DNA of 64,000 nt from a virus. Made by a program: the position numbers and the translations under genes. The notes under the pieces were generated by a model that did no database searches, was not told where the DNA came from, and saw nothing but the letters and a program-made list of their open reading frames with translations. Below, piece by piece: positions 4,056 through 62,203 of the stretch; position 1 is the stretch's first letter; every line of letters starts with the position of its first letter. Location: the IMG/VR virus record IMGVR_UViG_3300047548_001271, positions 64,001-128,000 of that record, one strand, 5' to 3'.

Positions 4056-4056
4056 T

Positions 4057-5058: not shown

Positions 5059-5064
5059 AGTATT

Positions 5065-17085: not shown

Positions 17086-19116
17086 TTAAAAAATTCTAGT
17101 ATTAAGTTTTTGAGGTTTGAAACCATTGTAACCAGAGAAAGCCCAACAATCACCGCTTTTTAGAATTCTATTTTCAATTTCTTGGGCATCAACCCAGAAT
17201 GAACCATCTGGTTGATTATGTCTTTTTGGTCCACTATTCCAGACTCCCCAAGAATTTTGAACTAACACTCCAGGTCTTTTATATTCGTCGTCAACGGCAA
17301 TAATGCACATTTGATGCGCCCAATTTCCTTCTGGTTTAGCAAAACCTTCAGAATCTCTCTTGTTAGAAAACCCTTGATTACTAGCAATCGTAACAGCATA
17401 ACCATTTACAATTAAATCTCTAACTTCGTTATATGTTTTTACTTGGGACACAGTTAATACACTATGTTCCTTAGCTATTGGTATTAATTCTGCTGGAACA
17501 CCAACACTTGGCATTCCCCAAGATTTTGCTCGCTGTGCATCATATTTTGATAAATCAATATTTCCATATTTCTGTCTTGCTAAAGCCCCGAATTTACTAA
17601 CATATTCTGCGGCCCACGCACCTAACGATCCATCGTCAGATCCGATTTGCCCCTTGCCAATTTGTACTCTGCTGCCAGCGTAAATATCCTCAGTAGCTGT
17701 CTCAGCAACCCACTCCTCAAACTCTTTATTAAGGAAGATATCTACGGCTTTAATAATATCTACTGCATATGCGGCTCCCATTGATACACAATTGTGAATT
17801 CCATATCCATTGCATATAAACGAATGATCTTCTTCTACTCCTATACAATATACGTATTCAGTTTCAGGTTCAACAATTTCTATTTTACATATTTTTGCAG
17901 CCTTACCATACTTAGTAACTTGCTTTTGGTTTAATTTTAATCCAATCGCTTGTTGTGTTAATACATCTACACCACAGTTAAGATTTAGTGAAAAAGATTC
18001 TTTGCTTTGTTTATACGCTTTTCTTTTTTGAATAGAACAATTTATATTAATTGAGTTTGCTATTTGAAAAAAATCATATATTAAATTTTCTGAAACAGAA
18101 ACTCCAATTTGATTATTATATCCATCACCATCCATCCATCCAGATAAAATCTGTAGTTTATTTTGTTCTGTTGTTATGAGTAAATCTTTATTTAATTTTT
18201 TGTTGTAAACATTACCAGAACATAATTTCTTAAATAGAGAACTGATAAGTAAATTTTGAACTCTTACATATATTATAGATGGTTTTGAAGGAACTGACGT
18301 TATGATGGCGTCAAAATCAAAAACGTCTTTAATATACGATTTTATCTTATTTGCTAACACGACCTCTTTAGAAGATAAGTTAAAGGTTATTCTTCCATTA
18401 TCAATACCGCCCTCTGCCGCATAAATCCCAATTAACCAGCAAAGCTTTTCATCTAAATCAATAAACCTGTTTATTTCTTTACTTGATCCTTTTACTCTTA
18501 TTTTATTAAAAAAAACAGGTTGTGTTCTTAATTTTTTAAAATCAGATTCGCTTGTTATAGATTCACCACATAAATCTTTTAAGTCGTATTTATATTTATT
18601 AATTGAAGGAAGTTTTGGTAATAGAATATAGTCGCCTTCATTTAAAGCGACTATAGGCTTCCATTCTATTTTAGATTTGTCTCCTGATTTACCCCTTCCA
18701 ACATTTGGAAGATACATATATAAATGATCTGGAGTTGACTCTATTGGTTTTTTATAGCCAGAAACGTGTATTCTTACCATGCTTTTATTGTATGGTTTTT
18801 TTATATAGTCTATAACTCTTCTAATGTTTCCATAAGGACTTATTACATATTCTCCTATCTTTATATCTTTTATTTGTTTTTCAGACCCATCCGCCATTCG
18901 AACCATAGCAGATGGATTTTGACAGTCGCCAATACCTTGATTCCTATTAGGAAATGAACCAGCAACTTTCTCTACAATCTGATATAGTAATGCTTTTTTA
19001 CCAGCACCGCTATCCTTAATTGGAGCCCAAACATCATTAAAAACCGGGAAAGGTAATCTATTCATTACCTTTTCAACTAAGTTTGGTTTATTTACCCATC
19101 CAAATTTATTACTCAT
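17086..19116 (-). CDS. papain-like (C1) cysteine peptidase interrupted by an intein
   Basis: Spliced product reads NQGIGD|CVSMGAA (oxyanion Gln, catalytic Cys), WAHQM (His), VQNSWG (Asn). Confidence 0.88.
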   Translation of the reverse strand: MSNKFGWVNKPNLVEKVMNRLPFPVFNDVWAPIKDSGAGKKALLYQIVEKVAGSFPNRNQGIGDCQNPSAMVRMADGSEKQIKDIKIGEYVISPYGNIRRVIDYIKKPYNKSMVRIHVSGYKKPIESTPDHLYMYLPNVGRGKSGDKSKIEWKPIVALNEGDYILLPKLPSINKYKYDLKDLCGESITSESDFKKLRTQPVFFNKIRVKGSSKEINRFIDLDEKLCWLIGIYAAEGGIDNGRITFNLSSKEVVLANKIKSYIKDVFDFDAIITSVPSKPSIIYVRVQNLLISSLFKKLCSGNVYNKKLNKDLLITTEQNKLQILSGWMDGDGYNNQIGVSVSENLIYDFFQIANSININCSIQKRKAYKQSKESFSLNLNCGVDVLTQQAIGLKLNQKQVTKYGKAAKICKIEIVEPETEYVYCIGVEEDHSFICNGYGIHNCVSMGAAYAVDIIKAVDIFLNKEFEEWVAETATEDIYAGSRVQIGKGQIGSDDGSLGAWAAEYVSKFGALARQKYGNIDLSKYDAQRAKSWGMPSVGVPAELIPIAKEHSVLTVSQVKTYNEVRDLIVNGYAVTIASNQGFSNKRDSEGFAKPEGNWAHQMCIIAVDDEYKRPGVLVQNSWGVWNSGPKRHNQPDGSFWVDAQEIENRILKSGDCWAFSGYNGFKPQKLNTRIF
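17791..18924 (-). mobile_element. intein (378 aa) with LAGLIDADG homing endonuclease
   Basis: Block A CQNPSAMVRMADGS, block B STPDH, LIGIYAAEG and LSGWMDGDG motifs, block F VYCIGVEEDHSF, terminal HN followed by +1 Cys. Confidence 0.93.
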
Positions 19117-41296: not shown

Positions 41297-41902
41297 TTAA
41301 TGATGTCCCTCGTGTTTGACTGGGAGATGCGACGCGATCTCCAAGATCTCAGTCAAATTATAGGGTTTGAAATTGTTTCCGTCAAGTCCAACATCCATAC
41401 TTTTTCCGCCATTGAAAAACCTATCTTCTCTTGAAGAATGACAATGACCGAACAAATGAATCGAACCATCAGCCATTTTATCCCAACTAGCGATTGGGAA
41501 GTGGAATAATACAATGAGTGGTAGACCTCTTTTTTTGAGAACATGGTATGGTGAATAAATATGAAAGCAATCAGACGCTCTTAAATTCGTTCCTTTGATT
41601 TGTGGATTAGATTCATATCCATGTCTATTGTCATGATTTCCTAGAATAAGATGAATTTTTTTACAATTCAGTCTTTTTCTAAAATTATAAATGTTTTCTG
41701 TTCCTCCAAAATTCCAATCTCCAAGACAGAATAGTTCATCATTTTCTCCGACTACATTGTTAATATTGTTGACTATTGTATCATTCATCTGCTCAATAGA
41801 GTCAAAATTTCGCAAACACTTGTCGCCACTCCAAGATGAAACACCTCTTACAATGTTTTTGTGCCCATAATGCGGGTCCGACATAAACCAAATATCACTC
41901 AT
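41297..41902 (-). CDS. calcineurin-like metallophosphoesterase
   Basis: SDPH, LGD, GNHD, HFP, GHCH. Confidence 0.9.
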   Translation of the reverse strand: MSDIWFMSDPHYGHKNIVRGVSSWSGDKCLRNFDSIEQMNDTIVNNINNVVGENDELFCLGDWNFGGTENIYNFRKRLNCKKIHLILGNHDNRHGYESNPQIKGTNLRASDCFHIYSPYHVLKKRGLPLIVLFHFPIASWDKMADGSIHLFGHCHSSREDRFFNGGKSMDVGLDGNNFKPYNLTEILEIASHLPVKHEGHH

Positions 41903-42321: not shown

Positions 42322-44265
42322 TTTTTATTTCTTTCATTCTCAAACTTTTTTAAAACATCAGCAAAGTCTTTAGAACTGACTTCGATATTATTTTTTCTTA
42401 GATAGTTTTCAACCATTGTGACATATCTATCACCGAACCCAATATCGGGATTTACCCAATCATACTCACAAGCAAGGTGCATCATACCAGCTAATAGTTT
42501 TTTTTCTGTAGGTGTAAGACATATACATGTACTTTTTTTACAATAATGGCAAAATGATCCGTCCATAATAAACCTTTTATTTTAAAAGTTGGATAGTATC
42601 TGCTGTTATAACTTTTATATTTTGAAGAGTTAAGATTTTTTTGTCTAGTTCATTTAAAAATTTAACCCTGGTCGAAACAAATCGCCTAATCCATGCCACT
42701 TCATAATATAAGTGCCAATCTAATTTAGTAATTTCTGTTTTCAAATTCATTTTTAATTCCATTGAATGTTCTTATAAACATCTGAGGTATTGTTCTTTTT
42801 ATATAGAAAAGCGTATCGTCTTTTTTATTACCTTGAATATATTTTAATAATGCATAGTATGTTTCATTTGATCCATATTTTGTCATTTTATCATACATTA
42901 TTAAGTCTAAGCTAAGAATTATTTGAGATATATTCATTGTTAATTTGGTTTTCTAAACTAGTTTCTATAAATATAGAGCTTTCTGTTTGAGCCATAGACG
43001 TAATTATTAATCTATCAATATTCAAAGGTGATAAATCAATATCATCTCCTAGCGACCTTATATAGGTCTCTGCCTCTTCTAATGAATAAGCGACAATCAA
43101 CACTTCTGTTTCTGAATTTTTAAACTTAAAAACTTTTGGTTTTACATGATCATAATATAACATAGCTCAGCCCTTTGTTGATGCTCGACTTTCACATTCA
43201 TCATATAATGTATTATATACCTCAAACTGATACTCATCAATTGATGAGTAAGATTCAAGTAGATCAATGAATATTTTTTTTGCTGATTCGTTATTAATTT
43301 TTTTACAAATTTTTACCTTGTTATTAAAGGCGTTTTCAATTGAAAAATTTTTTATACCAAATATCTGAAAAATAACTTCGAGTTTACATTGAATAAAATA
43401 CTTTTCAAGCTCTGAGTGTTTTTCAGTTTGTTCAAATATAACACCTCTATACATTCTAACTATTTCTTCCGCATTCATCATTAATCTCACAATAAAAACT
43501 TAAGATGAAACTTCCATGTCAATATCTCTATCAAAATGATAGAGACAAGCGAATTTAAATTGACCCGTATATTGATTTTTGTAATTAAGAAATTTTACTT
43601 GGTGTGCTCCTTCCCAGACACCACCAGATCTATCTACTATAGATTTTAATTTCTCTACATCACTTTTAGAATATACAGTTTGTAGTCTTAGTGTAAATCT
43701 AGCTGACTTGTCCGAATCTCGATTATAACAAGCGAGAACATATGTGTTGCCACAATCTTCGCACTCACTCAAATGTTTTTCTAAATCTAGTGGAAGTTCT
43801 GAATTTATAAATTTGAAAATTTCGCTTTTTGGTCTATCACATTCTTGCATAAAACACCCTCAAATCTAGTTCAATTTTTCGTGATTGGTTGTTTTGGTAT
43901 GGTTTCCACTGGCATCATTTCTACAAATATATGAATAAGCAATGCAGTCGCTTCTCTTGTAGGTATATTAGTAAATAAATCATCTTTAAAAGATTCTATT
44001 TTTATATTTGAACTTGTCTCATGTGAAATTTGAGAATTAAAACATTTCCTATGAAGCCTTTTTCTCAAATTTGTATTAATTTTTTCTAATCTTGATTTTT
44101 TGATAATTTGACACCAAATCATTTCACCTATATCAAAATAATTTAATTGTTTAACAGAATTTACCATTAAATCTACGCCAAGCCTCAAATTATAAGAATT
44201 GCCGTAAGAAGCAAATAATGCTTTTTGTGCTTCATATTTTAATTCATCGACAAAAAAGTGTAGTA

Positions 44266-46860: not shown

Positions 46861-46951
46861 TTAACCGCAGGAGAGAGGTCACTCCAACCCGACCAAAACC
46901 GAACTCTAGGTCGCCCTCTGGCTTATGGTTTTCCTGATTACATGCGGTTAA
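46861..46951. ncRNA. candidate structured RNA/3' element after the RNA ligase gene
   Basis: TTAACCGCA/TGCGGTTAA ends, AGAGG/CCTCT, CGACC/GGTCG, possible AAAACC/GGTTTT pseudoknot. Confidence 0.4.
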
Positions 46952-48231
46952 GAAACTTCTTCCATATCTTGATAGTCGTCAGCTTCCTTAGCAATCCCCT
47001 CCAGAACCTTAAAGAGGAACGATTTGTTCTTGAAAGTCTTCCATTTACTAGAGTCTACGCGAACGCACACTCCTTCTCGCGGATGACGAGGATCAACCAA
47101 GTCAGGTCCGTCAGTAAATCCATCCACCACTTCAAGAAGTTTATCGTAGTCTCCATCGAAAGTCAAGCGAGAAATCTCAGGAACGTATTTGACGCCCCAA
47201 GAATCACATTTCGACTTCACTTGATCCCATGTGAGATCGATAGCCTCGCCATTAGGAAGAACGTAAGCAATACGATAGACGTAGATATCAAAGTCAAGAA
47301 CAGGGAAACCAGTTTCATCGCATTTGCGAGCATCACAGTTATAGGTATAAGTAATCTTATCGCCATACAACTTCTTAACTTCCTTGTCCTTAGTTTTAGA
47401 TGTATCTTGAACTGGCATGATAGGTTTACCATACTCAAAACCAACAACCTCAAAGAAAATTTCCATATGGTCTTCGAGATATGGATATAGCTTTTCAGCC
47501 ACCTTTTCGCGGAAAGACTCAGAGTAATACCCAGTGTCATCTCCACGAAGTGTTACGTTACGAGTCCCATTGTAGAGACGCATAACTTTACGATCTCTCT
47601 TGATTTTGAAGAATTCGAGAACTCTGTCATACCATTTTTCCGGTTTCTCTTCGTAGTTCTTTGCAACTCGCTGAGAAGTTCCGTGCATTTTTAGAGTGAT
47701 GACAAGGTTATCACCAGCTTTGATCGAAGCTAGAGAGTGACGTAGCTGCTCAGTATCCTTATGTTTCGGAAACCAAATGCTCTCACGACAAACCTTAGTA
47801 GAGTTATTGCTTCTAGCTCTAAGAGTCCGAGGAGAAAAGTATTTCTTGCAGATTTCCTTGCCGTTAAATGTGGCGATTTTATCTCCTTCTTTCAGAGAAG
47901 AAGTATCACCAGCGTAATTCAGGTGCGACAGCGGACACCAAAATCCATTAGATTTTAGGCCTCGAACTTTTTGTGCTCGAACCTTACGGTTTTCATCGAA
48001 CATTCCTCCGGCATTAGTTCCGTCCGGATTCTTTCGACGAACGAGATCATTTGCAGCGGCAAATTCTTCGCTAAGCTGTAGATCGCAAGGGAAATACAGA
48101 CCTAGTTCACCATCAGCAGTCTTGTTCGAAACAACAATAGTTTCCCCAAGAACCCAACCAACAGCAAGCGAATGAACTTCTGGATCTGGGTGTGGTGTTA
48201 CTTTAATTCGTGTTACAATGGCTTCGTGCAT
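46948..48231 (-). CDS. RNA ligase (Rnl2/DRB0094-like)
   Basis: N-terminal OB-like 'V.PHP..HSL', HKDTEQL, motif I TLKMHGTS, FEVVG, REGVCVR, K.K. Confidence 0.85.
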   Translation of the reverse strand: MHEAIVTRIKVTPHPDPEVHSLAVGWVLGETIVVSNKTADGELGLYFPCDLQLSEEFAAANDLVRRKNPDGTNAGGMFDENRKVRAQKVRGLKSNGFWCPLSHLNYAGDTSSLKEGDKIATFNGKEICKKYFSPRTLRARSNNSTKVCRESIWFPKHKDTEQLRHSLASIKAGDNLVITLKMHGTSQRVAKNYEEKPEKWYDRVLEFFKIKRDRKVMRLYNGTRNVTLRGDDTGYYSESFREKVAEKLYPYLEDHMEIFFEVVGFEYGKPIMPVQDTSKTKDKEVKKLYGDKITYTYNCDARKCDETGFPVLDFDIYVYRIAYVLPNGEAIDLTWDQVKSKCDSWGVKYVPEISRLTFDGDYDKLLEVVDGFTDGPDLVDPRHPREGVCVRVDSSKWKTFKNKSFLFKVLEGIAKEADDYQDMEEVS

Positions 48232-50791: not shown

Positions 50792-51760
50792 AAACTTTTC
50801 CTTTTTAAATAATTTGAATGAATGTACAGTCTTTGCATCCCCAAGAAGTATTATCATCCCATGTATTATTGCTTCCGCATTTTGGACACTTCATTTATAA
50901 GATCCTTTTTATATTAGTCAACTTTAATCCCACTTTTTTCAAGAACTTTCTTAGCTCTTTCAATTTGTTTTTTCTCTGCTAAGGCTTTTCTTTTTTGTTG
51001 AGCCTCTTCTTGTTTTTTAATTTCTTCTTTTTCTTTTTCTTGTTCATCTTGAATGAATTTCTTAATATTCTCAATAAAACCATCAATCGTTTTTTTGCTT
51101 GTAATGTCTTCTAAAATAACTATTTCAGTATTATACTTTGATAAACGTTTTTTACCTTGTGGGCTTTGTAACCATTTAAGTTCCTCTTCCGTTACATCTT
51201 CCCATTCAGATTGTTCATTTGTCTCAAAAAGTTTAGCATTTTGACAAAATGTATAATTACAAGTATCACAGTGTATAATATTGTTATGAACTCTAATCAA
51301 TTTAATTCTTGGCATGGCACACCTCATTTGACATCGTTAAAGCCCAGATCATTAATCCGCGTTTATGGTTGCCGCCACTAACACGAATATAATGACTTGA
51401 TATTTCATTATGTGGATATTCATCTGCATCGCAGAATATTTTTTTACTTGGAACCCACATCATTCCTGAGTCAGTAATATTCAAGAATATACCACTAGTA
51501 TGCTTGTATACTAGCGTGTCTTTATCTTGAGTCCATCCAATACCTGGTTTTAGTTTATTTTTCTTCATTCAATTCACCAGTCATCCATTTTCTCAAATCA
51601 ACAATTAAAAACCAATCTTGGTTAATTTTTTTAGCAATTTCTAAAGCTTGTTCTTCTGTTTCAAAGCATCCTCTCCAATCTTCTGTTCCTGCGGAGTAAC
51701 ACTCGTTATCTGCAGCGATTAGCAGAAATGGTTTATTCATTATAAATTTGCTTTCTCAAG

Positions 51761-52018
51761 TGGACCTGGCCGGATTCGAACCGGCGTCTCAAACTAACTA
51801 TATAACAATTCATTCACACGTTTAGTTGCTGAGCAACGTCCTTAGTTTATACGATAACAATCCACTCTTGGTTGATAGGGTTTGTGGAGACCCCACGCTT
51901 ATGCAGCGAGAGAAACGATGTTTGCTCTTATTTTTTGATTGGCTTTTTACGAGGCCAGCCGATCAACCTCGACGTGCATCATTATACCGCTTCATCTGAT
52001 CGATACCATTACAGGCCC
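51761..52018 (-). ncRNA. ssrA: tmRNA (258 nt, tag ANIVSLAA)
   Basis: GGGCCTG/CAGGTCC-A acceptor with G3.U, T-arm GCCGGTTCGAATCCGGC, PK1 (GAGG..GGCT GGCCTC..AGCC), resume codon GCA, ORF GCA AAC ATC GTT TCT CTC GCT GCA TAA at 51925-51899. Confidence 0.92.
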
Positions 52019-52635: not shown

Positions 52636-53097
52636 TTAGATATCATTTGATGTAAACTTTTCATATTCACTTTCCATCATTAAATAACAAAAAACATTTC
52701 TTCCGTGAGTTAAATATGTATATATCTTTGTTTTTGGATTAAACTCCAACCAAATATCATTCCACGGCCCACGAAATGTTAAAGCCCATGTGTCTGAATG
52801 AGACACCACTCGATGTATATTATTTCTCGGAGTGAATTTTGGCAAGAACGACGCTTTAAAATTTTTATTTTCTCCGGTCAATTTTTCTTCTGTGACTTCT
52901 CCGCTCAAAAACCAAGTAATAGCATTAAATGCGTGTGAGTGGTAATTTTCGCGAGAGCCATTCTTAAAATGAAGAAGTCCAATTGAAAAGAGCTTCTTCC
53001 ATTCTACTAGAAAATATCCAGTAACACCAGACTCAGCACCGCCGTCAAATTTTTTATAAAAGAATCGTGGAAGCCATTTGTGAAGAAATACATTCAT
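52636..53097 (-). CDS. cupin-like phage protein
   Basis: YHSHAF...E...HRV...W.L.F.GP. Confidence 0.6.
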   Translation of the reverse strand: MNVFLHKWLPRFFYKKFDGGAESGVTGYFLVEWKKLFSIGLLHFKNGSRENYHSHAFNAITWFLSGEVTEEKLTGENKNFKASFLPKFTPRNNIHRVVSHSDTWALTFRGPWNDIWLEFNPKTKIYTYLTHGRNVFCYLMMESEYEKFTSNDI

Positions 53098-53378
53098 CTA
53101 CGACCATCCTCTTGCAGTAAAAAGTGTGCTCTATATACTGGCTTTGTAAAACCTAAATATATTTCCCAGTCAGAATATCCATGCTCGACAAATCTATCTT
53201 TTTCTCTTATGTATTCTACTACACGTTTCTCTTTTAGTTGTTCAGAATAAACAACTCTAAATTTTTCAACGTCTGTATGGATTGTTTTTATTTCGTATCT
53301 ATCAAGTTCTTTACGAACGTCATTTCTTATTTGATCTATACAATGTTTATTATTTGGGTGCGTTATTATGTATTGCAT
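53094..53378 (-). CDS. hypothetical protein preceded by a UMACAGCA RNA module
   Basis: 94-aa ORF. Confidence 0.5.
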   Translation of the reverse strand: MQYIITHPNNKHCIDQIRNDVRKELDRYEIKTIHTDVEKFRVVYSEQLKEKRVVEYIREKDRFVEHGYSDWEIYLGFTKPVYRAHFLLQEDGRR

Positions 53379-53383
53379 AAAAA

Positions 53384-53437
53384 GGTCACTTTCTTAGTAT
53401 CGAAACTAAATAATCCATATTAATGCTGTGAGTGACC
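53384..53437 (-). ncRNA. UMACAGCA module, leader copy E
   Basis: GGTCAC-TCACAGCA...TTAGT/ACTAA hairpin-GAAA-GTGACC. Confidence 0.6.
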
Positions 53438-53636
53438 ACATTACTCGCCGTGACGAGTAAAGATCTCTTTCCACACATGGTGGACGAGGCTATCGCTTTA
53501 ACATCTCCATTATGAGAGCCCAATCAAGAAGCATACTAAAAATATGTATAAATCCATAAATATACAAATTATAGTAAGGTTGTTTTCTTAAAATAAAACT
53601 AGAAAAAACATTTATTAGTGTAAACATTATTAGTTC

Positions 53637-54032
53637 CTATTTAAACAACCCAGAAAAAAGACCTTTAACAACCTCTTTAGATTTTTCTCCAACCCATTCA
53701 CCAGCCACGCGAGATTTATTTATATCAGTTTTTTCAACTATTATATCATCTTTTGTAAATTTAATTCCATCTGGACCAGCAGATCTAATCGTCGCCTTGT
53801 CAAAATTGTCAGATTTTTCAAGCTTGTGGTCAACCACATTTCCCCATGGGTCCATTGCTGGTTTATATTCACTATCAGATTTTAGTAGTTTTGCGACCTC
53901 GTTTTCTAGCACTTTCTTTTCTTGTATGCTACTAAAACTAAAACCCCCAATAAATGCAATGATAAGAAAACCAGCCAATACAAAAGTAAAAAACTCGTCT
54001 ATTTGAAGAACACCATCTATAATCTTTTTCAT
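53637..54032 (-). CDS. membrane-anchored protein with GspG-like pseudopilin C-terminal domain
   Basis: TM helix; DPWGN ... IRSAGPDG..FTKDDI. Confidence 0.7.
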   Translation of the reverse strand: MKKIIDGVLQIDEFFTFVLAGFLIIAFIGGFSFSSIQEKKVLENEVAKLLKSDSEYKPAMDPWGNVVDHKLEKSDNFDKATIRSAGPDGIKFTKDDIIVEKTDINKSRVAGEWVGEKSKEVVKGLFSGLFK

Positions 54033-54051
54033 AGAAACCTTTCAAAAAAAA

Positions 54052-54160
54052 TCCGGCAGCTAGGATTCGAACCTAGATCACGATCTTAGAAGTGATAATT
54101 TTAATGCTGTTAGAGATAAAATATCTCGTTTTACGTGTTTTACCGTTAAACTACCGCCGA
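54052..54160 (-). ncRNA. tRNA-shaped RNA with UAACAGCA module in place of the anticodon loop (Y-RNA-like, copy C)
   Basis: Acceptor TCGGCGG/CTGCCGG, D-arm, T-arm CTAGGTTCGAATCCTAG; anticodon region AAAAC-GAGATA/TATCTC-TAACAGCA. Confidence 0.75.
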
Positions 54161-54161
54161 T

Positions 54162-54265
54162 ATGTGTTGCCGGGACTCGAACCCGGATGCTAAAATTTTA
54201 TGCTGTTAGAGATCTTTTCTGTATCTCGTTTTCATATTTTTGCTTTACCATTAAGCTACAACACA
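54162..54265 (-). ncRNA. tRNA-shaped RNA with UAACAGCA module in place of the anticodon loop (Y-RNA-like, copy D)
   Basis: Acceptor TGTGTTG/CAACACA, D-arm GCTT/AAGC, T-arm CCGGGTTCGAGTCCCGG; AAAAC-GAGAT/ATCTC-TAACAGCA. Confidence 0.75.
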
Positions 54266-54270
54266 TTTTT

Positions 54271-55647
54271 TTAAACAATATATCGATCTTTCATGATCGT
54301 CTCTAACATTACTCCTTCTGGTGACAGATCACCAAAAAGTGAAGGAATAATACTTGGAGAATAACCACTAACCAAAGCAACTCCTTTATCAGAAATTTTA
54401 GCTTGGAAGTTTTTATCTCTGCCGTTAACATTCCAGAAAACAACTTGAGGAAGTTTATATCCATGAGACTCGAATTGAGATGTCATAGTTTGATAATTTG
54501 TCCCACGACAAGCAGAATTAAATTCCATGTCAGAGATGATTAGAATTTTACTTGGCATGTCATGGTTTGTCAAGTTGTTTTGTACGGCTTTGTTGAGAAT
54601 CAACTCAAATACTTTTTGTAAGTCAGTGCTCATTCCCCATTCAGCTTGAGAAAGCTGTCTAAGTCGTTGACCAAAGTCACCAGAAAGCTGTTGAAGTTTT
54701 GGATTACTAGAGAAGGTAATAAAACAATCCTTAAAGATTCCAGTATTACGCTGCGAACAGTACATTGCTAATGAAATTGATGCATGAATTGGTCTAAATT
54801 GAGGATCTGAATAACAACCCATGCTACCACTAACATCAGAAACAACCAATACATTTTCATCTGTATAATAATTCGGTAGTGCGTTCCACTGAGCAACAGC
54901 AACTACTGGATTTTTATTATACGATAGCAAAACATCATGAGGGAACAAAACACTAGCATTTATTTTTGCTTCACCAGAAGCTACTTTCGTCATGTATTGA
55001 CCAAATCTTTTTGGATCTCGCTTATTAAAAGACCGAGAATAAATAGACATAGCTTTTGATGGAACAGCAGAATATTTAATTTCTGACCATTGACGAGCAC
55101 TCATCTGTTGTTCAACGACTTTAGTATTTTTTACAATTCTTTGCTTGAGACTAATAATCGAAACATCTAGTTTGGCAGCGACAAGGCCAAGCAAATTTCC
55201 TTCATTGTGTCTTGGTAGCCACTTACAAAGAAGATTATTGTCAATGTTGTCTGCGATAAACTGTGCTGTGTCATCGCATACTGGCATTACCATCCTTTTA
55301 GTAGTTGAGGTGCCCCATAGATCGTCCCATCGACCAATATCTGGAACCCTCTTCATAACTCTGATCTTATCTGCTTTAGGAAGAGATCTGTAAATCAACC
55401 GGAAAAGTCTTCGTTCTCCAGCTCCTCCACGAGGATCTCTCAACCACAGCAAAATTCTGAGTGCGAGATCTGGATTACTGATGTAGGCTTTTTCCCACAA
55501 AAGCAAAACTTCCTTGTCTGGACGGCTTCTCATAGAAGCAATAGTAGAAAACAAATCAACTAAAGGAGAACCAGTAGTTGAATGGGATTCTGCCCCATTA
55601 GCAGTCAGAGAATCATTCGTTTGAAGAGCATTAATCAATTTAGACAT
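54271..55647 (-). CDS. Ro60/TROVE-like protein (DUF2828-type helical domain plus vWA)
   Basis: T.NGA..H.TTG...VDLF, RDPRGG.GER, GRWDDL, KWLPR, Y..VPS.AM, DVSGSM MIDAS, ISDMEFN, FWNV, SGYSP. Confidence 0.85.
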   Translation of the reverse strand: MSKLINALQTNDSLTANGAESHSTTGSPLVDLFSTIASMRSRPDKEVLLLWEKAYISNPDLALRILLWLRDPRGGAGERRLFRLIYRSLPKADKIRVMKRVPDIGRWDDLWGTSTTKRMVMPVCDDTAQFIADNIDNNLLCKWLPRHNEGNLLGLVAAKLDVSIISLKQRIVKNTKVVEQQMSARQWSEIKYSAVPSKAMSIYSRSFNKRDPKRFGQYMTKVASGEAKINASVLFPHDVLLSYNKNPVVAVAQWNALPNYYTDENVLVVSDVSGSMGCYSDPQFRPIHASISLAMYCSQRNTGIFKDCFITFSSNPKLQQLSGDFGQRLRQLSQAEWGMSTDLQKVFELILNKAVQNNLTNHDMPSKILIISDMEFNSACRGTNYQTMTSQFESHGYKLPQVVFWNVNGRDKNFQAKISDKGVALVSGYSPSIIPSLFGDLSPEGVMLETIMKDRYIV

Positions 55648-55665
55648 GGTTTAAATCCTTAAAAA

Positions 55666-55717
55666 TGTCGCATTTCATTCAGGAAAAGTGAATTTTTTTT
55701 ATGTGCTGTTAGCGACA
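55666..55717 (-). ncRNA. UAACAGCA module, leader copy B (5' of the TROVE-like gene)
   Basis: TGTCGC-TAACAGCA...ATTCA/TGAAT hairpin-GAAAT-GCGACA. Confidence 0.7.
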
Positions 55718-55726
55718 ATATGACTA

Positions 55727-56725
55727 CTATTTCATCACCAAAACTCGCTGTTTTGGTATTACATTCCTATTAACGCTTGTACTTTGAATAAACACAATCC
55801 ATTCGCCATGATCTTCCGGTGTAATCTTTACTTCTGAATTCGGAAGATTTAGCAATGTTCTTGCATTATCACCAGTATAAACTTTACCATTCTTTTTGTT
55901 CTGTACGGCAATTTCTTTTTGCGGTTGAACATGTTCATTTTTTACTAGTTCATAAAAAGAATTTCCAAGAACATATTTAGTCCCAAGTTTCTTTTCAACG
56001 AGCGGTTTTATTTGAACCGCTTTTACATCCTCGTTGATGATCACATCATAGCTTCCGTCTTTTACTATGTCAAGCACTTTCGAAACATTTTTTGAAGTCA
56101 CTTCGGAAAGATTAGAGAAAATGCTTCTGGTAGACTTAACTCCGGATTTTCTTGCTGTGAAGAAATTATCCATCGTCTGCTTGAATTTATTACCGACCTC
56201 AACAACGCCTTCTTTTGTTGCATTCCAGATTTCAATATTTCCTTCTGGAATACCAAGATTTTTTAAGGCCATGACGCCCGCTTGATTAGGAACAAAAGCG
56301 GCAACTGTAAAATTATCTGGAAGAGTTTTTAATTGATTGATTAATTCTATCGGTTTTGTTTTTGAGTGGTTTTCTTCTCCATCCGTTATTAGATAAATAA
56401 TGAAAGAGTGATCGCCGTATTTTTGAGGAAGCTCTTTCGCATCATTAATAGCTAGACAAAAAGCATCTCTTAAGGCCGTATTTCCATAAGCTGTGATTTC
56501 TTCAAGTTTTACTGGTCTTGCCACATCAACATCACTAATTACACATTTAACATCAGAAGCAAAAGTATAGAAACTAATTCTAGTCTCTTGTTCTTGTTCA
56601 ATGCTAGACTGCCTCAGATTATCTATTTGTAAATTAAATATATCAGAAGCTGTTTTGATGATTGGAGCCATTGAGCTTGATACGTCCAAGCAAACAAATA
56701 CATGGTTTTTATAAGTATTTTTCAT
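55727..56725 (-). CDS. vWA-domain protein
   Basis: LDVSSSM MIDAS, G.TAL.DA, ITDGEEN.S; C-terminal FYEL.K.E.VQ..K...STS.NR. Confidence 0.88.
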   Translation of the reverse strand: MKNTYKNHVFVCLDVSSSMAPIIKTASDIFNLQIDNLRQSSIEQEQETRISFYTFASDVKCVISDVDVARPVKLEEITAYGNTALRDAFCLAINDAKELPQKYGDHSFIIYLITDGEENHSKTKPIELINQLKTLPDNFTVAAFVPNQAGVMALKNLGIPEGNIEIWNATKEGVVEVGNKFKQTMDNFFTARKSGVKSTRSIFSNLSEVTSKNVSKVLDIVKDGSYDVIINEDVKAVQIKPLVEKKLGTKYVLGNSFYELVKNEHVQPQKEIAVQNKKNGKVYTGDNARTLLNLPNSEVKITPEDHGEWIVFIQSTSVNRNVIPKQRVLVMK

Positions 56726-56746
56726 AAGAGATCCTTAAAAGTTACA

Positions 56747-56800
56747 TGTCGCGTTTTAATCTTTTACCAAAAAAAAGTTATTTTTATGCTGTTAGCGACA
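56747..56800 (-). ncRNA. UAACAGCA module, leader copy A (5' of the vWA gene)
   Basis: TGTCGC-TAACAGCA...CTTTT/AAAAG hairpin-AAAC-GCGACA. Confidence 0.7.
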
Positions 56801-56801
56801 A

Positions 56802-56884
56802 TGGACCGAGTAGGAATCGAACCTACCAACACAAGAATTTAAAATCCGGATTAAAATTCTTATAGACACCAGCTCTGTCGGCCC
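56802..56884 (-). ncRNA. tRNA-like RNA with Ala identity and extended, anticodon-less arm
   Basis: GGGCCGA/TCGGTCC-A (G3.U70, A73), T-arm GTAGGTTCGATTCCTAC, long AU-rich hairpin at the anticodon position. Confidence 0.65.
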
Positions 56885-56891
56885 TTTTTAA

Positions 56892-56965
56892 TGGACAGAA
56901 TAGGAATTGAACCCACCACAGATGCATTGCAAATGCTTCTCGCCACCCTTGGAACATGTCCGCCC
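56892..56965 (-). tRNA. tRNA-Ala(UGC), atypical D-arm
   Basis: GGGCGGA/TCTGTCC-A with G3.U70; loop TTTGCAA. Confidence 0.75.
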
Positions 56966-56972
56966 GTATTAT

Positions 56973-57000
56973 ATTGTATAGTCTATTTGGCGATTGTCAA
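56973..57000 (-). promoter_or_regulatory. sigma70-type promoter heading the tRNA-Ala/vWA/TROVE unit
   Basis: TTGACA-N16-TACAAT, ending 7 nt before tRNA-Ala. Confidence 0.7.
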
Positions 57001-57871
57001 GTGTTTTTTCTTTATTTTCTTCTTCTACTGAATAAACAAGCTTTATTCCGCCACGTCTTTCATTATAATGTCCGTACTCATCATGATATCCTGCTATTCT
57101 CGCAGTGAATTCGTAATTAATTATATTATTTTTCTTTATGAAATCATCAACAGCTTGTTGTAAATCGTTGAATGTTTTATATTTAAACACTTCAATATCA
57201 TTATAATATTCCCAAAACAACCACTTAATAAGAGCCCGTTTAGTTATTTTTTGATCATAAGCCCAATACATTTGGCGAACTTTCATTTTTCATCGCTCCA
57301 ATCAAATTTTGTTTGTCATATTTAGAATAAATAAAATGCTTTATCGATTTAAACTACCTCACATTTAATCTTGTTTTAATTGCTGTTTGTACATAATTTA
57401 AATCAATCCGCACTGCGTAGTCAAAAAGCATTTTATCACAAACTTCTTTACTGACTTGTTTTCGCAAACTATCGAAATTTTTTGCGCATATAAGAGAGCG
57501 AATATAATGTATTGTTAATTGAGTGTCATATATATGTTTATCACAGACATATAAATATAGGCTTAATGGAATGTCTTGTGCTGTTTGTATTATTTCAGAC
57601 ATAATTATTAAATAGCCTTACTACTTTTAGTAGAAAATTTACTTGACAAATATTGATAAACATTTTCTTCTTCTACTTCTTCAAGTATTTCATCAGGATA
57701 AATTATTTCAGTTTCAAAATCTTCTGTGATAACAGTAATGTTGTCAACACTATCTGAATTGTTAAATGAAGATCTAACTCTAATATCTACTATTTTTCCA
57801 AAAGATCTGTTATCACTAACAGTAAAAAGTACCCAAGATCCTATTTTCATATAATAACCTTTCTTAAAAAA

Positions 57872-59852: not shown

Positions 59853-60764
59853 TTAATGATTGAGTTTGCTACGAACTTCTTGTAATGAATACTCCTTCAG
59901 AATATTAGAATCTCTAAAGATTTCAACAAGTTCGCCTTGAGACTCTTGTTCTGGAGTGCAGTTGTTCACTAGAGATAGTTTACCATCATTCCTTACTACT
60001 GACAATAGTCCTTTTGCAGATTTTTTAGTTCCGTTATCAGTTTTTGGGTCTTTCCAGATTGGTTTTGCTTCGCCATTGATCTGCACCCAAGTCGCCTTAC
60101 ACGCAATACTGAATGTATCACGAGTATTGTACTGGTAAGTATAGCTTCCAACGCCGAATACAACATTAGTTGATGCAAAACCTTTAGCTTCCAATCGCTC
60201 GCAAATTCTCTTACAACGATCAAGAGTTATACTGTCTCCGTAAATCAGACCAATATGAGAATCTAGTTCAATATAACCCTTAGAATTCTGTGTACCACCA
60301 AAAACATCATAAAGTCTTTCTACAGCACCTTCAACTTCTGATTGTGAGACGATTTTACCTTCTGGTGTTACATAGTCACCGTCTATTGTGAGCAAGCACT
60401 CAACACCATCAAATGCCTTCATAACATACGATGCACTATCCAACTTCTTTAAGAGCTTTTTAGTTGTCAACCCACAACTATCAAATGTGTAACCAGTCAA
60501 GATTTTAACTGGGTCTCCGCTGTCAGGTCGGATAACAACCTTCCCATTTCGATTCATGATTTGATCTTTAATCGAAGGAAGAAGATTGTCAATTACAGAC
60601 CAAAAATCCCATGTATCACTTACAATTGATACAATTCCTTCTGGATAAACATCTTGAATTAAACGTAGAAACATGCCTCTTTCATTATAAGACAGAATTT
60701 GTGATTGATATTTTTCAATATCTTGTTTAGTTACTGATCTAGTTCTTGTGATTGGTGTATTCAT
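59853..60764 (-). CDS. NAMPT-like/Namat, C-terminal half
   Basis: IVSIVSDTWD, VIRPDSGDP, IYGDSIT, FGVGS, TRDT, KDPKTD.GTKKSAKG; start placed at MNTP (60764). Confidence 0.9.
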   Translation of the reverse strand: MNTPITRTRSVTKQDIEKYQSQILSYNERGMFLRLIQDVYPEGIVSIVSDTWDFWSVIDNLLPSIKDQIMNRNGKVVIRPDSGDPVKILTGYTFDSCGLTTKKLLKKLDSASYVMKAFDGVECLLTIDGDYVTPEGKIVSQSEVEGAVERLYDVFGGTQNSKGYIELDSHIGLIYGDSITLDRCKRICERLEAKGFASTNVVFGVGSYTYQYNTRDTFSIACKATWVQINGEAKPIWKDPKTDNGTKKSAKGLLSVVRNDGKLSLVNNCTPEQESQGELVEIFRDSNILKEYSLQEVRSKLNH

Positions 60765-60798
60765 ATATAACAGCACTTTCGGAACAATGGAGAATAAA

Positions 60799-61392
60799 AT
60801 GAAGAAATGTGGACATTGCAAAGAATTAAAACCATTAGAATCGTTTTGTAAAAATAAACGATGTAAAGATGGATATCATTATACTTGCAAACAATGCGTT
60901 AATAAATCGTGCTCAACAGAAGAGTACAAAACAAAACGTAAATTGTATTATCATACTTGTGAAAAATATAAACTTAGAAAAATATCACAATCTACTAAAG
61001 TTAGAAAAGTGGAGTATGATAAAATTTATAGAAAAAAGAACGCGGATAAGATAAAAATACAAAAACGTGATTGGGAAAAATTGCATAAAAATGATCCTAT
61101 ATTTAAAATTAAAAGAAACCTAAGAAGAAGAATCAACCATTTAGTTAGGGGTCAAAAATCAGATAAAACTTTTAACTTAATAGGTTGCAACGCCGAAGAA
61201 TTCAAAAAACATATAGAATCTCAGTTTTTAGAAGGAATGTCTTGGGATAACTATGGAGAATGGCACATTGATCATATAGTTGAATGCTTTAGATTTGATT
61301 TAACAGATTTTGAAAATCAAAAAAAATGTTTTCATTATACCAATCAAAGGCCACTATGGAAGAAAGATAATCTTACTAGAAAACGAATTTAG
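60799..61392 (+). CDS. free-standing HNH endonuclease inserted antisense in the NAMPT-like gene
   Basis: N-terminal C..C...C..C zinc finger; LIGC...F..HIE.QF..GMSWDNYG.WHIDH...C...HYTN.RPLW..DN; GGAGA Shine-Dalgarno before ATG 60799. Confidence 0.88.
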   Translation: MKKCGHCKELKPLESFCKNKRCKDGYHYTCKQCVNKSCSTEEYKTKRKLYYHTCEKYKLRKISQSTKVRKVEYDKIYRKKNADKIKIQKRDWEKLHKNDPIFKIKRNLRRRINHLVRGQKSDKTFNLIGCNAEEFKKHIESQFLEGMSWDNYGEWHIDHIVECFRFDLTDFENQKKCFHYTNQRPLWKKDNLTRKRI

Positions 61393-62203
61393 AAAACTCC
61401 CATTCATTAGTTTTTTCATTATAAACTTCTACTATTTCTTTTGGGTTATGCAAAGATCCATGGGCACAACAGACTGCGTGTTCTGTGGCTGGGACGCTCG
61501 CCCCAACAAGCTCATTCTCAACATCAGCTTTATAATATTCTTCAAGAAATTCAATTGCTGTGATAGTGTCAGTCCCAGAAAATGAGAGCAAATGACCAGC
61601 ACCAGAGACAGAACCACTTTCTACAGAAGACATGCCCCTCATTGAGAAATCATGACCTTGCCAATCCACAAACGCCGGATTATCAGAAGTCTTATTCGCG
61701 TAGGAGTCAAGAACCTTTCTGTACTCATGAGCAATAGTTGCAGATGTAATTGCCTGCCAAATTACAGTTTGAGTTAGTGTTTCAACAAAATTTGTCAACC
61801 AGTAAAACTCTGGTTTTGTGTTGACAATTGTCATGAATGGAACACCTACTGGGCAGAGAGTTCCTTCTGGCAAAGCCTTGATTGACAACGGCAAATACTG
61901 GAGATCGTGCAGTGCGGCAATCCTTTCAGCATTCACTGATCCTTTACCAAGAGTATTGTCCATCATCCGCAAAAACTTGTTTACAACAACTTCTTTTGGT
62001 TGACTGAAAAACTCTTTGTCAAATCTATCTACGAGGTATTCTTTCACTAGATATTGAAGACCGAAAACAACAACCTCGTTAACGCCGCTCAACCTCGAAG
62101 ATCGTGGCGTGGTATTTGAGTATACAAACTCAGTTCCTGGTGGATATTGATCTGGGTGGGATTGCTTGTAAAAGTCAGAGATAAACAATGGGAAGTTTTT
62201 CAT
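61376..62203 (-). CDS. NAMPT-like/Namat, N-terminal half
   Basis: DFYK.SH..QYP, FGLQY, HDFSMRG, GHLLSF.GTDT, SVPATEH. Confidence 0.9.
   Translation of the reverse strand: MKNFPLFISDFYKQSHPDQYPPGTEFVYSNTTPRSSRLSGVNEVVVFGLQYLVKEYLVDRFDKEFFSQPKEVVVNKFLRMMDNTLGKGSVNAERIAALHDLQYLPLSIKALPEGTLCPVGVPFMTIVNTKPEFYWLTNFVETLTQTVIWQAITSATIAHEYRKVLDSYANKTSDNPAFVDWQGHDFSMRGMSSVESGSVSGAGHLLSFSGTDTITAIEFLEEYYKADVENELVGASVPATEHAVCCAHGSLHNPKEIVEVYNEKTNEWEFSKFVF

What the first reader, a model, noticed from the sequence alone, without database searches (positions are those of the whole stretch)
54052..54265. Tandem tRNA bodies with the anticodon loop replaced by a conserved module
Seen: two adjacent RNAs (109 and 104 nt) have intact acceptor, D and T arms with unrelated stem sequences, but share AAAACGAGATA...ATCTCTAACAGCAT at the anticodon position. 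Neither has a 7-nt anticodon loop or obvious intron hallmarks. Established: in YrlA the RNA ends lie in the Ro-binding stem. Inference: here the ends are in a normal acceptor stem, so RNase P/Z and CCA addition could mature them. They would be a non-permuted Y-like class that tRNA scanners would likely call pseudo or intron-containing tRNAs.
Basis: partly seen in the sequence, partly recalled or inferred. Interest (0 to 1): 0.85.

Follow-up and report, generated by a model that had tools for sequence, protein, structure and literature searches.

The report
tRNA-shaped partner RNAs of Ro60-like protein
Two tRNA-shaped RNA genes in a large phage carry, in place of or beside the anticodon loop, the short folded "handle" that accompanies a Ro60-like ring-protein gene in many phages; they are most likely unspliced partner RNAs of that protein, built inside-out compared with known bacterial Y RNAs.

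Summary
Window 54265..54162 and 54160..54052 (minus strand) are two complete tRNA cloverleaves with different stem sequences. Both carry the same module, AAAAC, a 5-6 bp capped helix, then UAACAGCAU, in the anticodon arm.

The gene just upstream (54271-55647) is a DUF2828/DUF7788 protein. Its predicted fold matches Ro60. The same module, un-permuted and with a covarying helix, lies in three mRNA leaders of this window and beside DUF2828 genes in many other phages. Some of those copies enclose a YrlA-like permuted tRNA domain.

I found 24 more tRNA-bodied, capped-handle RNAs in unrelated phage contigs, usually within 1 kb of a Ro60-like gene. Two orthologues of tRNA2 keep the acceptor, T and handle helices through compensatory changes, while their "anticodon" differs.

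There is no bulge-helix-bulge motif and no group I core. Cutting the module out of tRNA2 does not give a normal tRNA.

Best reading (about 0.6): these are non-permuted Y-RNA analogues that dock the Ro60-like protein. Binding, non-splicing and function are inferred, not shown.

I found no published description. This scan has already reported the same RNA-protein system, including this tRNA-bodied form, on other genomes and on this one.

The parts
54162..54265 (-). tRNA1, 104 nt. Acceptor 54265-54259 with 54169-54163; D arm 54256-54242; anticodon stem AAAAU 54240-54236 with AUUUU 54196-54192; T arm 54186-54170; discriminator U 54162. The handle replaces the anticodon loop.
   Evidence: Rfam tRNA 52.4 bits; sequence; arms parsed; fold z = -2.7
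54200..54232 (-). Handle of tRNA1: AAAAC (54232-54228), helix GAGAU (54227-54223) with AUCUC (54213-54209), 9-nt cap, UAACAGCAU (54208-54200)
   Evidence: The capped-handle model R2 gives only 11.6 bits, E 2.5.
54052..54160 (-). tRNA2, 109 nt. Acceptor 54160-54154 with 54059-54053; D arm 54151-54137; CG 54135-54134 pairs with CG 54082-54081; AUC 54096-54094 pairs with GAU 54085-54083 around the 8-nt loop ACUUCUAA 54093-54086; T arm 54076-54060; discriminator A 54052. The handle branches from the 5' strand of the anticodon stem between positions 28 and 29.
   Evidence: Rfam tRNA 39.9 bits. Orthologues L269:4414-4526 and L273:5595-5707 keep 22 of 22 pairs, 8 of them with compensatory changes.
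54104..54132 (-). Handle of tRNA2: AAAAC (54132-54128), helix GAGAUA (54127-54122) with UAUCUC (54118-54113), UUU cap, UAACAGCAU (54112-54104)
   Evidence: Best match in the whole window to model R2, which was built only from other phages' capped handles (18.7 bits, E 0.044)
54044..54051 (-). Run of eight U directly after tRNA2; likely end of the transcription unit
   Evidence: sequence; no other terminator-like site nearby
54271..55647 (-). Ro60-like protein gene (458 aa; Pfam DUF2828 + DUF7788; phrog_850 'RNA-binding protein'). It ends 6 nt before tRNA1.
   Evidence: Model pLDDT 84.9, pTM 0.86. The top 13 PDB fold matches are all Ro60/TROVE.
55660..55718 (-). Un-permuted handle RNA/leader: UGUCGC-UAACAGCAC...AAAU-GCGACA. 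Its 3' strand ends 5 nt before the ribosome-binding site of the Ro60-like gene.
   Evidence: model R1 26.3 bits, E 0.006
55727..56725 (-). 332-aa protein with a weak vWA-domain match (phrog_26613), first gene of the unit
56741..56802 (-). Un-permuted handle RNA/leader ahead of the vWA gene, starting 2 nt after a tRNA-like element
   Evidence: model R1 29.6 bits, E 0.001, best hit in the window
53378..53441 (-). Third un-permuted handle (GGUCAC-UCACAGCAU...GUGACC). It ends 5 nt before the start codon of a 94-aa ORF (53094-53378).
   Evidence: model R1 20.4 bits, E 0.11
56973..57000 (-). Sigma-70-like promoter match (TTGACA-16-TACAAT, 11 of 12) ahead of the whole unit
   Evidence: consensus match only

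Best explanation
The two genes encode stable, unspliced, tRNA-shaped small RNAs that act as partner RNAs (Y-RNA analogues) of the Ro60-like DUF2828 protein encoded just upstream.

The shared module is that protein's docking handle. It is a short helix next to an internal loop formed by UAACAGCA(U/A) on one strand and AAAA(C/U) on the other. In most RNAs of this family the handle helix holds the RNA's 5' and 3' ends and the loop strands lead into a variable 'cargo'. The cargo is an anticodon-stem-loop look-alike or a permuted tRNA domain, as in YrlA.

Here the topology is turned inside out. The handle helix is capped by a loop. The loop strands run into the anticodon stem of a complete tRNA body. 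The ends lie in a normal acceptor stem.

The RNAs are probably transcribed with the vWA and Ro60-like genes from one promoter. RNase P and a 3' tRNA-processing nuclease would cut them out and CCA would be added. They would then carry the ring protein at the anticodon end of an otherwise authentic L-shaped tRNA.

The three leader copies next to ribosome-binding sites or start codons suggest the same protein also controls translation of its own operon.

The likely biological role is tRNA-directed surveillance, protection, decoy or repair during infection, for example against host anticodon nucleases.

Shown: RNA anatomy, conservation, covariation, gene linkage and the protein fold. Inferred: protein-RNA binding, processing, lack of splicing and the role.
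For: (1) Cloverleaf with intact tertiary-contact nucleotides.

(2) The neighbouring protein folds like Ro60. The 13 best PDB matches are Ro60/TROVE, E 2e-9 to 1e-5, aligned over about the full length.

(3) Handles with the same loop strands flank DUF2828 genes in other phages. The helix is 93.8% paired with 7 of 8 pairs changed on both sides, and 0 of 500 shuffles reach the score. A model built from them finds the window's leaders as its top hits.

(4) L013:3749-3862 has the handle around a permuted T-arm/hairpin/D-arm domain that Rfam's YrlA model aligns end to end (37.7 bits).

(5) The capped, tRNA-bodied form recurs. Of 28 candidates in IMG/VR, 24 have a hairpin of at least 5 bp abutting the motif, against 6.3 (maximum 12) in shuffles. 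There are 22 different helices with 4-6 pair types per position.

(6) Linkage. A Ro60-like gene lies in 11 of 17 such loci, mostly within 1 kb, and in 27 of 118 pattern loci, against 0 of 116 control loci.

(7) Orthologues of tRNA2 keep the acceptor, T and handle helices by 8 compensatory changes, while the loop reads ACUUCUAA, CUAUUAA or AUGUUAA.

(8) Relatives show Ser anticodons (GCU, UGA, GGA) on short-variable-arm bodies. One of these phages also has a proper long-arm tRNA-Ser(GCU). Two phages have a normal tRNA-Thr(UGU) beside a handle-bearing one. One 100-kb record has the handle-tRNA as its only tRNA match.

(9) The insertion site varies from the loop to positions 26/27, 28/29 and 29/30, unlike an intron with a fixed splice site.
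Against: There is no expression, end-mapping or binding data.

The handle model built from other phages scores tRNA2 only marginally (E 0.044) and tRNA1 not significantly (E 2.5).

Removing 32 nt from tRNA1 would give a formally acceptable tRNA-Phe(GAA).

Many relatives keep a perfect 7-nt loop with U33 and a purine at 37. One orthologue (L276) has the CUGUUAA loop plus G73, a combination that from my own knowledge of E. coli tRNA identity, not tested here, fits tRNA-Asn. Some handle-bearing tRNAs may therefore still be charged or decode.

In three phages no ordinary tRNA duplicates the handle-tRNA's anticodon.

An RNA ligase gene lies 6 kb away. It could in principle seal a spliced tRNA.
Confidence: 0.6

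Rival explanations
1. Handle-tagged working tRNAs. The RNAs are charged and used in translation with the extra arm in place, at least those of the tRNA2 type. The handle only recruits the Ro60-like protein to shield or escort them.
For: Full tRNA bodies with free acceptor ends. Relatives have canonical 7-nt loops with U33 and R37 (13 of 14 read). L276's orthologue has CUGUUAA plus G73, which from my own knowledge fits tRNA-Asn. Some relatives encode CCA. In G003, G004 and G005 no ordinary tRNA has the same anticodon.
Against: tRNA1 has no anticodon loop, and tRNA2's loop is 8 nt. The anticodon changes among orthologues with the same body. Ser anticodons sit on class-I bodies, and ordinary tRNAs with the same anticodon exist in L018, G007 and G010. 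A 40-nt branch inside the anticodon stem is unlikely to fit the ribosome; this last point is my inference and was not tested.
Confidence: 0.15
2. A new kind of short protein-spliced tRNA intron. The module is cut out by an unknown endonuclease, perhaps guided by the Ro60-like protein. The halves are joined by the phage RNA ligase to give tRNA-Phe(GAA) and an Arg-type tRNA.
For: ARAGORN in intron mode yields Phe(GAA) for tRNA1. An RNA ligase (PF09414, 46948-48231) and a metallophosphoesterase are in the window. No ordinary Phe or Arg(UCU) tRNA is in the window.
Against: There is no bulge-helix-bulge: both single-stranded segments face one another at a single junction. At 32-40 nt with no Rfam group I match, it cannot be self-splicing. 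Excision from tRNA2 leaves an 8-nt loop or a mismatched stem. The same module stands alone in leaders and in free small RNAs where there is nothing to splice. The insertion site is not fixed. No splicing endonuclease was seen among about 36 ORFs checked, which is not an exhaustive survey.
Confidence: 0.1
3. Processing or termination punctuation only. The tRNA bodies serve as RNase P / 3'-nuclease cleavage signals and as a terminator for the operon. The handle is a cis-regulatory copy with no function of its own in these RNAs.
For: The position at the 3' end of the operon, 6 nt after the stop codon, followed by U8. In L275 and L276 tRNA bodies alternate with free handle RNAs, so tRNA processing would release them.
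Against: Plain tRNAs would do this job. Selection keeps the handle helix inside the tRNA bodies across many phages.
Confidence: 0.08
4. Decayed tRNA genes hit by an insertion; the similarity is chance.
For: Default tRNA finders reject them.
Against: All stems are intact, with compensatory evolution in orthologues. The form recurs in unrelated phages with 22 different helices.
Confidence: 0.02

Closest known systems
YrlA-type Y RNAs with Ro60/Rsr in bacteria and mycobacteriophages (Rfam RF02553; Chen et al. 2014, PMC4201824)
   Same: A small RNA encoded next to a Ro60-fold protein, with a tRNA-like D arm and T arm. The protein-binding element is attached at the anticodon-stem side of the tRNA-like domain. 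A related phage RNA (L013:3749-3862) aligns to the YrlA model end to end.
   Different: In YrlA the 5' and 3' ends lie in the Ro-binding stem and the 'acceptor' is a closed hairpin. Here the ends are in a true acceptor stem and the binding element is capped. The handle (helix + UAACAGCA / AAAAY loop) does not resemble the YrlA stem consensus. The protein is DUF2828/DUF7788, not Pfam TROVE. The YrlA model scores only 17.8 bits here, and only across the junction of the two genes.
Un-permuted 'handle' RNAs beside phage DUF2828 genes
   Same: The same loop strands and a covarying helix, the same gene neighbour, and three copies in this window.
   Different: Those RNAs have their ends in the handle helix and carry a small hairpin or a permuted tRNA domain. 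The two RNAs here are the circular permutation, with a whole tRNA as cargo.
Class I RNAs of dictyostelid amoebae (Rfam RF01414; Kjellin et al. 2021, PMC7919456)
   Same: A short terminal stem, then CUUACAGCAA next to the 5' strand of the stem, a variable middle, and a closing strand followed by UG. This is the architecture of the phage handle RNAs. Rfam gives weak matches to L013 (16.6 and 16.5 bits).
   Different: Well below the gathering score of 41.5, and no match in this window at E<=10. They are eukaryotic, are reported as unique to Dictyostelia, and have an RRM protein (Rnp1A) as known binder. This is a resemblance only, and I did not test it further.
Intron-containing tRNAs (archaeal/eukaryal bulge-helix-bulge introns; bacterial and phage group I introns in anticodon loops)
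   Same: Extra sequence in the anticodon arm of an otherwise normal tRNA gene. Intron-aware scanners call them that way.
   Different: No bulge-helix-bulge, no group I core, a variable insertion site, and an inserted module that is an independent unit also found outside tRNAs.

Membership tests
tRNA (Rfam RF00005) | Cloverleaf with acceptor, D and T arms scoring above the family's gathering score | tested here: met
   52.4 and 39.9 bits against 29; 7/7, 4/4 and 5/5 pairs
tRNA (Rfam RF00005) | 5-bp anticodon stem closed by a 7-nt loop with U33 and a purine at 37 | tested here: not met
   tRNA1: 39 nt between the stem strands. tRNA2: stem interrupted by a 41-nt branch, and an 8-nt loop.
tRNA (Rfam RF00005) | Aminoacylation and use in decoding | not testable with these tools
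   Needs acid gels or ribosome association
YrlA / Y RNA (Rfam RF02553) | Match to the family model above its gathering score (69 bits) | tested here: not met
   17.8 bits, model positions 30-81 only, spanning tRNA1's T arm and tRNA2's D arm
YrlA / Y RNA (Rfam RF02553) | 5' and 3' ends paired in the protein-binding stem | tested here: not met
   The ends pair as an acceptor stem and the handle helix is capped
YrlA / Y RNA (Rfam RF02553) | Encoded next to a Ro60 orthologue | tested here: inconclusive
   The neighbour has a Ro60 fold but belongs to Pfam DUF2828/DUF7788, not TROVE. It has no sequence-level match to PDB Ro60.
YrlA / Y RNA (Rfam RF02553) | Bound by the Ro60 protein | not testable with these tools
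   Needs co-purification or gel shift
DUF2828-associated handle RNAs (defined here by models R1 and R2) | Covarying helix flanked by U(A/U)ACAGCA(A/U) on its 3' side and AAAA(Y) on its 5' side | tested here: met
   Direct reading. tRNA2 is the top window hit of R2 (18.7 bits, E 0.044). tRNA1 is weak (11.6 bits, E 2.5). The leaders are hit by R1.
DUF2828-associated handle RNAs (defined here by models R1 and R2) | Location within about 1 kb of a DUF2828 gene | tested here: met
   6 nt and 111 nt downstream of the gene. The same linkage holds in 11 of 17 other loci.
Intron-containing tRNA | Bulge-helix-bulge at the exon-intron borders, or a group I catalytic core | tested here: not met
   Sequence reading. 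No Intron_gpI or other Rfam match. Inserts are 32-41 nt.
Intron-containing tRNA | Excision restores a canonical tRNA | tested here: inconclusive
   tRNA1 yes, giving Phe GAA with loop AUGAAAA. tRNA2 no.
Dictyostelid Class I RNA (Rfam RF01414) | Match above the gathering score (41.5 bits) | tested here: not met
   No match at E<=10 in 53950-57050. 16.6 bits in L013.

The most novel reading that the evidence does not exclude
Phages use a previously undescribed Ro60-like ribonucleoprotein whose RNA partners include complete, CCA-ended tRNA bodies with the ring protein docked at the anticodon arm. The particle senses, decoys or repairs attacks by host anticodon nucleases. The same handle in dictyostelid Class I RNAs would mean this RNA-protein pairing is ancient and crosses domains of life.
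Probability: 0.25. Interest if true: 0.9.

Novelty: new variant of a known kind. Interest (0 to 1): 0.8.

Why it matters
Ro60/Y-RNA particles are known from animals and some bacteria, and their tRNA-like domain has no settled function. Here a very large protein family (over 7,000 relatives at E<=1e-50) with a Ro60 fold travels with its own RNA handle. The handle is grafted onto hairpins, onto permuted tRNA domains and, as in this finding, onto whole tRNAs with free acceptor ends.

This gives a direct, testable link between a Ro60-type ring and authentic tRNA architecture in phage-host conflict. It supplies natural circular permutations for dissecting what the protein recognises. It also warns that "tRNAs with introns" or "pseudo-tRNAs" in phage annotations may be a separate class of RNA.

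Tried and rejected
- The exact 14-mer ATCTCTAACAGCAT in IMG/VR gave 116+ loci, all chance matches on inspection.
- Exact patterns from the module found the window's own contig neither in viral contigs nor in metagenome contigs. No whole genome is held. I therefore could not list all tRNAs of this phage.
- blastn of the locus against GenBank phages gave only two short, irrelevant hits.
- A sequence search of the protein against PDB found nothing. Only the fold search showed Ro60.
- Aligning the two tRNA bodies with ordinary phage tRNA-Phe and tRNA-Arg was uninformative.
- I asked whether handle-tRNAs duplicate or replace ordinary tRNAs of the same anticodon. The result was mixed: duplicates in 3 records, none in 4, and one record with no other tRNA. 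I use it only as weak evidence.
- The first MAFFT alignment of handle RNAs (A2) misaligned two rows and was replaced by A3.
- A promoter reading of the motif was rejected. The motif sits inside covarying RNA helices, and its strand and position relative to the helices are fixed.
- I did not attempt a protein-RNA complex prediction, because the tool takes no RNA.

Full report
**What is there**

On the minus strand, 54265..54162 (tRNA1, 104 nt) and 54160..54052 (tRNA2, 109 nt) are separated by one base. Rfam's tRNA model aligns both from position 1 to 71. The scores are 52.4 and 39.9 bits against a gathering score of 29, with 34 and 51 extra bases at the anticodon arm.

Default ARAGORN reports nine other tRNA/tmRNA genes in the window but not these two. 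In intron mode it calls tRNA1 "Phe(gaa) with a 32-nt intron". It forces tRNA2 into "Pyl(cta) with a 40-nt intron" on a mismatched stem.

Both RNAs have:
- fully paired acceptor, D and T stems with different sequences;
- the usual U8, A14, GG and UUCGA positions;
- folding energies 2.7-2.9 sd below shuffles.

They share AAAAC, a 5-6 bp hairpin (GAGAU(A)/(U)AUCUC) and UAACAGCAU. The 13-mer around the motif occurs exactly twice in 64 kb, both times here.

In tRNA1 the module sits between the strands of a 5-bp anticodon stem (AAAAU/AUUUU), and there is no anticodon loop. In tRNA2 it branches from the 5' strand of the anticodon stem after C27-G28. It is followed by AUC-ACUUCUAA-GAU, an anticodon-like hairpin with an 8-nt loop.

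**Context in the window**

The window is a 33% GC phage-like region, with genes almost all on the minus strand. Its contig is 157 kb.

The ORF ending 6 nt before tRNA1 (54271-55647) matches Pfam DUF7788 and DUF2828, and phrog_850 "RNA-binding protein". An AlphaFold model built on 25 homologues (pLDDT 84.9, pTM 0.86) has Ro60/TROVE structures as its 13 best PDB matches. These include Xenopus, human and Deinococcus Ro60 and the Thermus phage phiLo Ro60. A sequence-only search of PDB finds nothing.

The motif UC(G/A)CU(A/C)ACAGCA(U/C) recurs three more times on the same strand:
- 56802..56741, ahead of a vWA-like gene;
- 55718..55660, ahead of the Ro60-like gene;
- 53441..53378, ahead of a 94-aa ORF.

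In each copy a helix strand directly precedes the motif (UGUCGC or GGUCAC). Its complement lies 40-50 nt downstream, preceded by AAAU/AAAC/GAAA. That complement ends 5-10 nt before the ribosome-binding site or start codon.

A strong sigma-70-like match lies at 57000..56973, and a U8 run follows tRNA2. This suggests one transcription unit: two odd tRNA-like elements, handle, vWA gene, handle, Ro60-like gene, tRNA1, tRNA2.

**The module is a family-wide RNA handle**

I fetched 34 IMG/VR loci encoding relatives of the protein (33-44% identity). Most sit in tRNA/tmRNA clusters.

Upstream or downstream of the gene, one to four copies of the same element occur: helix strand A, U(A/U)ACAGCAA(A/U), a variable middle, AAAA(Y), helix strand B, then often UGUU. 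In an alignment of 14 such elements from other phages:
- the helix is 93.8% paired;
- 7 of 8 pairs change on both sides;
- no shuffle or slid control comes near.

A covariance model built from them (R1) finds the window's two main leaders as its best hits (29.6 and 26.3 bits). The third leader ranks fourth.

The variable middle is often a hairpin with an anticodon-like 7-nt loop. In some cases it is a T arm, hairpin and D arm in permuted order. L013:3749-3862 aligns end to end to Rfam's YrlA model (37.7 bits, below the gathering score of 69).

No Rfam family reaches its threshold on any handle. Rfam's Dictyostelium Class I RNA model gives weak matches (16.6 bits). The resemblance is real at the level of architecture: stem, CUUACAGCAA, variable part, stem, UG. 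It does not amount to membership.

**The capped, tRNA-bodied topology recurs**

In tRNA1 and tRNA2 the order is AAAAC, strand B, cap, strand A, UAACAGCAU. This is a circular permutation of the open handle. The helix is closed at the end that is open in the leaders. The two loop strands run into the tRNA's anticodon stem.

A pattern scan of IMG/VR (ACAGCAW, 10-40 nt, GGTTCRANTCC) gave 28 non-redundant cases, the two window RNAs and L018 included. In each, the motif lies between a D arm and a T arm of a body with a paired acceptor stem. Of these:
- 24 have a hairpin of at least 5 bp ending 1-3 nt before the motif, against 6.3 (maximum 12) in 500 shuffles;
- the 24 carry 22 different helices, with 4-6 standard pair types at every position;
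- in an alignment of 19, the helix is 99.1% paired and all 6 pairs change on both sides.

A model from these 19 (R2) has tRNA2's module as the best hit in the whole window (18.7 bits, E 0.044). tRNA1's module, with its 5-bp helix and 9-nt cap, scores only 11.6 bits.

A Ro60-like gene is present in 11 of 17 of these short loci, mostly within 1 kb. It is present in 27 of 118 pattern loci, but in 0 of 116 control loci of equal total length.

Two sub-types exist:
- The handle replaces the anticodon loop: tRNA1, L180, L185, L227b, L275a and one RNA in L276.
- The handle branches from the 5' strand of the anticodon stem, between positions 26/27 and 29/30, and leaves an anticodon-like hairpin: tRNA2, L018, L155, L210b, L219b, L220, L224, L238, L250, L263.

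**Orthologues**

Proteins about 60% identical to the window's lie on contigs that carry clear orthologues of tRNA2 (L269:4414-4526 and L273:5595-5707). Across the three RNAs, all 22 pairs of the acceptor, D, T and handle helices are kept. Eight pairs change on both sides: five in the acceptor stem, two in the T stem and one in the handle.

The motif there reads ACGCAGCAA. The anticodon-like loop reads CUAUUAA and AUGUUAA, against ACUUCUAA in the window. A further relative (L276) has CUGUUAA with G73. From my own knowledge of E. coli tRNA identity, not tested here, that combination fits tRNA-Asn.

In L275 and L276, free handle RNAs alternate with tRNA-bodied ones downstream of the gene. tRNA processing would therefore release both kinds.

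**Intron or partner RNA?**

Against an intron:
- There is no bulge-helix-bulge, because both single-stranded segments face each other at one junction.
- The inserts are 32-41 nt and match no catalytic intron.
- The insertion site is not fixed.
- Excision from tRNA2 does not give a normal anticodon arm.
- The same module works as a free-standing unit where nothing can be spliced.

Against plain decoding:
- tRNA1 has no anticodon loop.
- Orthologues change the "anticodon".
- Relatives show Ser anticodons on short-arm bodies. One of these phages (G010) also has a proper long-arm tRNA-Ser(GCU).
- L018 and G007 have an ordinary tRNA-Thr(UGU) beside the handle-bearing one.
- The 100-kb record G008 has the handle-tRNA as its only tRNA match.

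For the rivals:
- tRNA1 minus 32 nt would be a formal tRNA-Phe(GAA).
- Most branch-type relatives keep U33 and a purine at 37.
- In three records no ordinary tRNA has the same anticodon.
- An RNA ligase (PF09414, 46948-48231) and a metallophosphoesterase lie in the window. These fit RNA repair as well as they fit splicing.

**Conclusion**

These are Y-RNA-like partners of a Ro60-like protein with a normal tRNA strand order and a free acceptor end. The docking handle is grafted onto the anticodon arm.

I put this at about 0.6. Handle-tagged working tRNAs get about 0.15, a new protein-dependent intron about 0.1, and punctuation only about 0.08.

I found no paper or Rfam family describing the handle, the DUF2828-RNA pairing or the tRNA-bodied form. 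Earlier reports of this same scan describe the system on other genomes and on this genome. I reached the handle, the Ro60 fold and the Class I resemblance before reading them. From them I took only the pointer to the third leader, which I then checked.

Noticed in passing
window 56810-56961 (-): Two odd tRNA-like elements sit between the promoter-like site and the first handle. The first (about 56961..56892) has a weak tRNA match (17.4 bits) with a UUUGCAA loop. The second (56884..56810) has a good acceptor stem with G3-U70 and a T arm, but an 11-bp extended 'anticodon' hairpin and a poor D arm. Neither is called by ARAGORN or by Rfam at threshold.
   Followed up: partly
window 51758-52018 (-): Phage-encoded tmRNA (96.6 bits, tag ANIVSLAA) directly beside tRNA-Tyr. 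Several related DUF2828 loci also carry tmRNA genes (L005, L006, L017, L018, L019, L021).
   Followed up: no
window 46948-48231 (-) and 41297-41902 (-): An RNA ligase (PF09414) and a calcineurin-like phosphoesterase, a possible RNA-repair pair. In L275 an RNA ligase gene lies 2 kb upstream of the Ro60-like gene.
   Followed up: no
window 17086-19116 (-): A 676-aa ORF with intein splicing, Hint and LAGLIDADG matches, next to ribonucleotide reductase genes. It is probably an intein-containing host protein.
   Followed up: no
window 59853-62203: NAMPT/NAPRTase-like matches fall in two separate minus-strand ORFs (59853-60821 and 61376-62203), with a plus-strand ORF (60748-61392) between them. A PRPP-synthetase-like gene follows.
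   Followed up: no
window 44197-44239 (-): Second-best hit of the capped-handle model R2 (16 bits, E 0.2). It has a hairpin followed by UUACGGCAAUU, lies inside or at the end of a 132-aa ORF, and may be chance.
   Followed up: no
L276:4037-4105: A 69-nt tRNA-like element with acceptor, D and T arms but only about 14 nt where the anticodon arm should be. It sits between two free handle RNAs.
   Followed up: no
L001, L027, L028 (about 4001-5420): The Ro60-like reading frame contains in-frame stop codons under code 11. L001 also carries a tRNA with anticodon UCA, so these phages probably use a recoded stop codon.
   Followed up: no
L283 (G006:C1:96705-97057): Capped handles with motif variants UUCAGCAA and ACUGCAA inside tRNA bodies. 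The conserved core may be as short as (C/U)GCAA.
   Followed up: no
L269:2183-2783: ARAGORN in intron mode calls a tRNA-Gln with a 506-nt insert, possibly a group I intron in a tRNA gene. L018:740-967 has an Rfam group I intron match.
   Followed up: no
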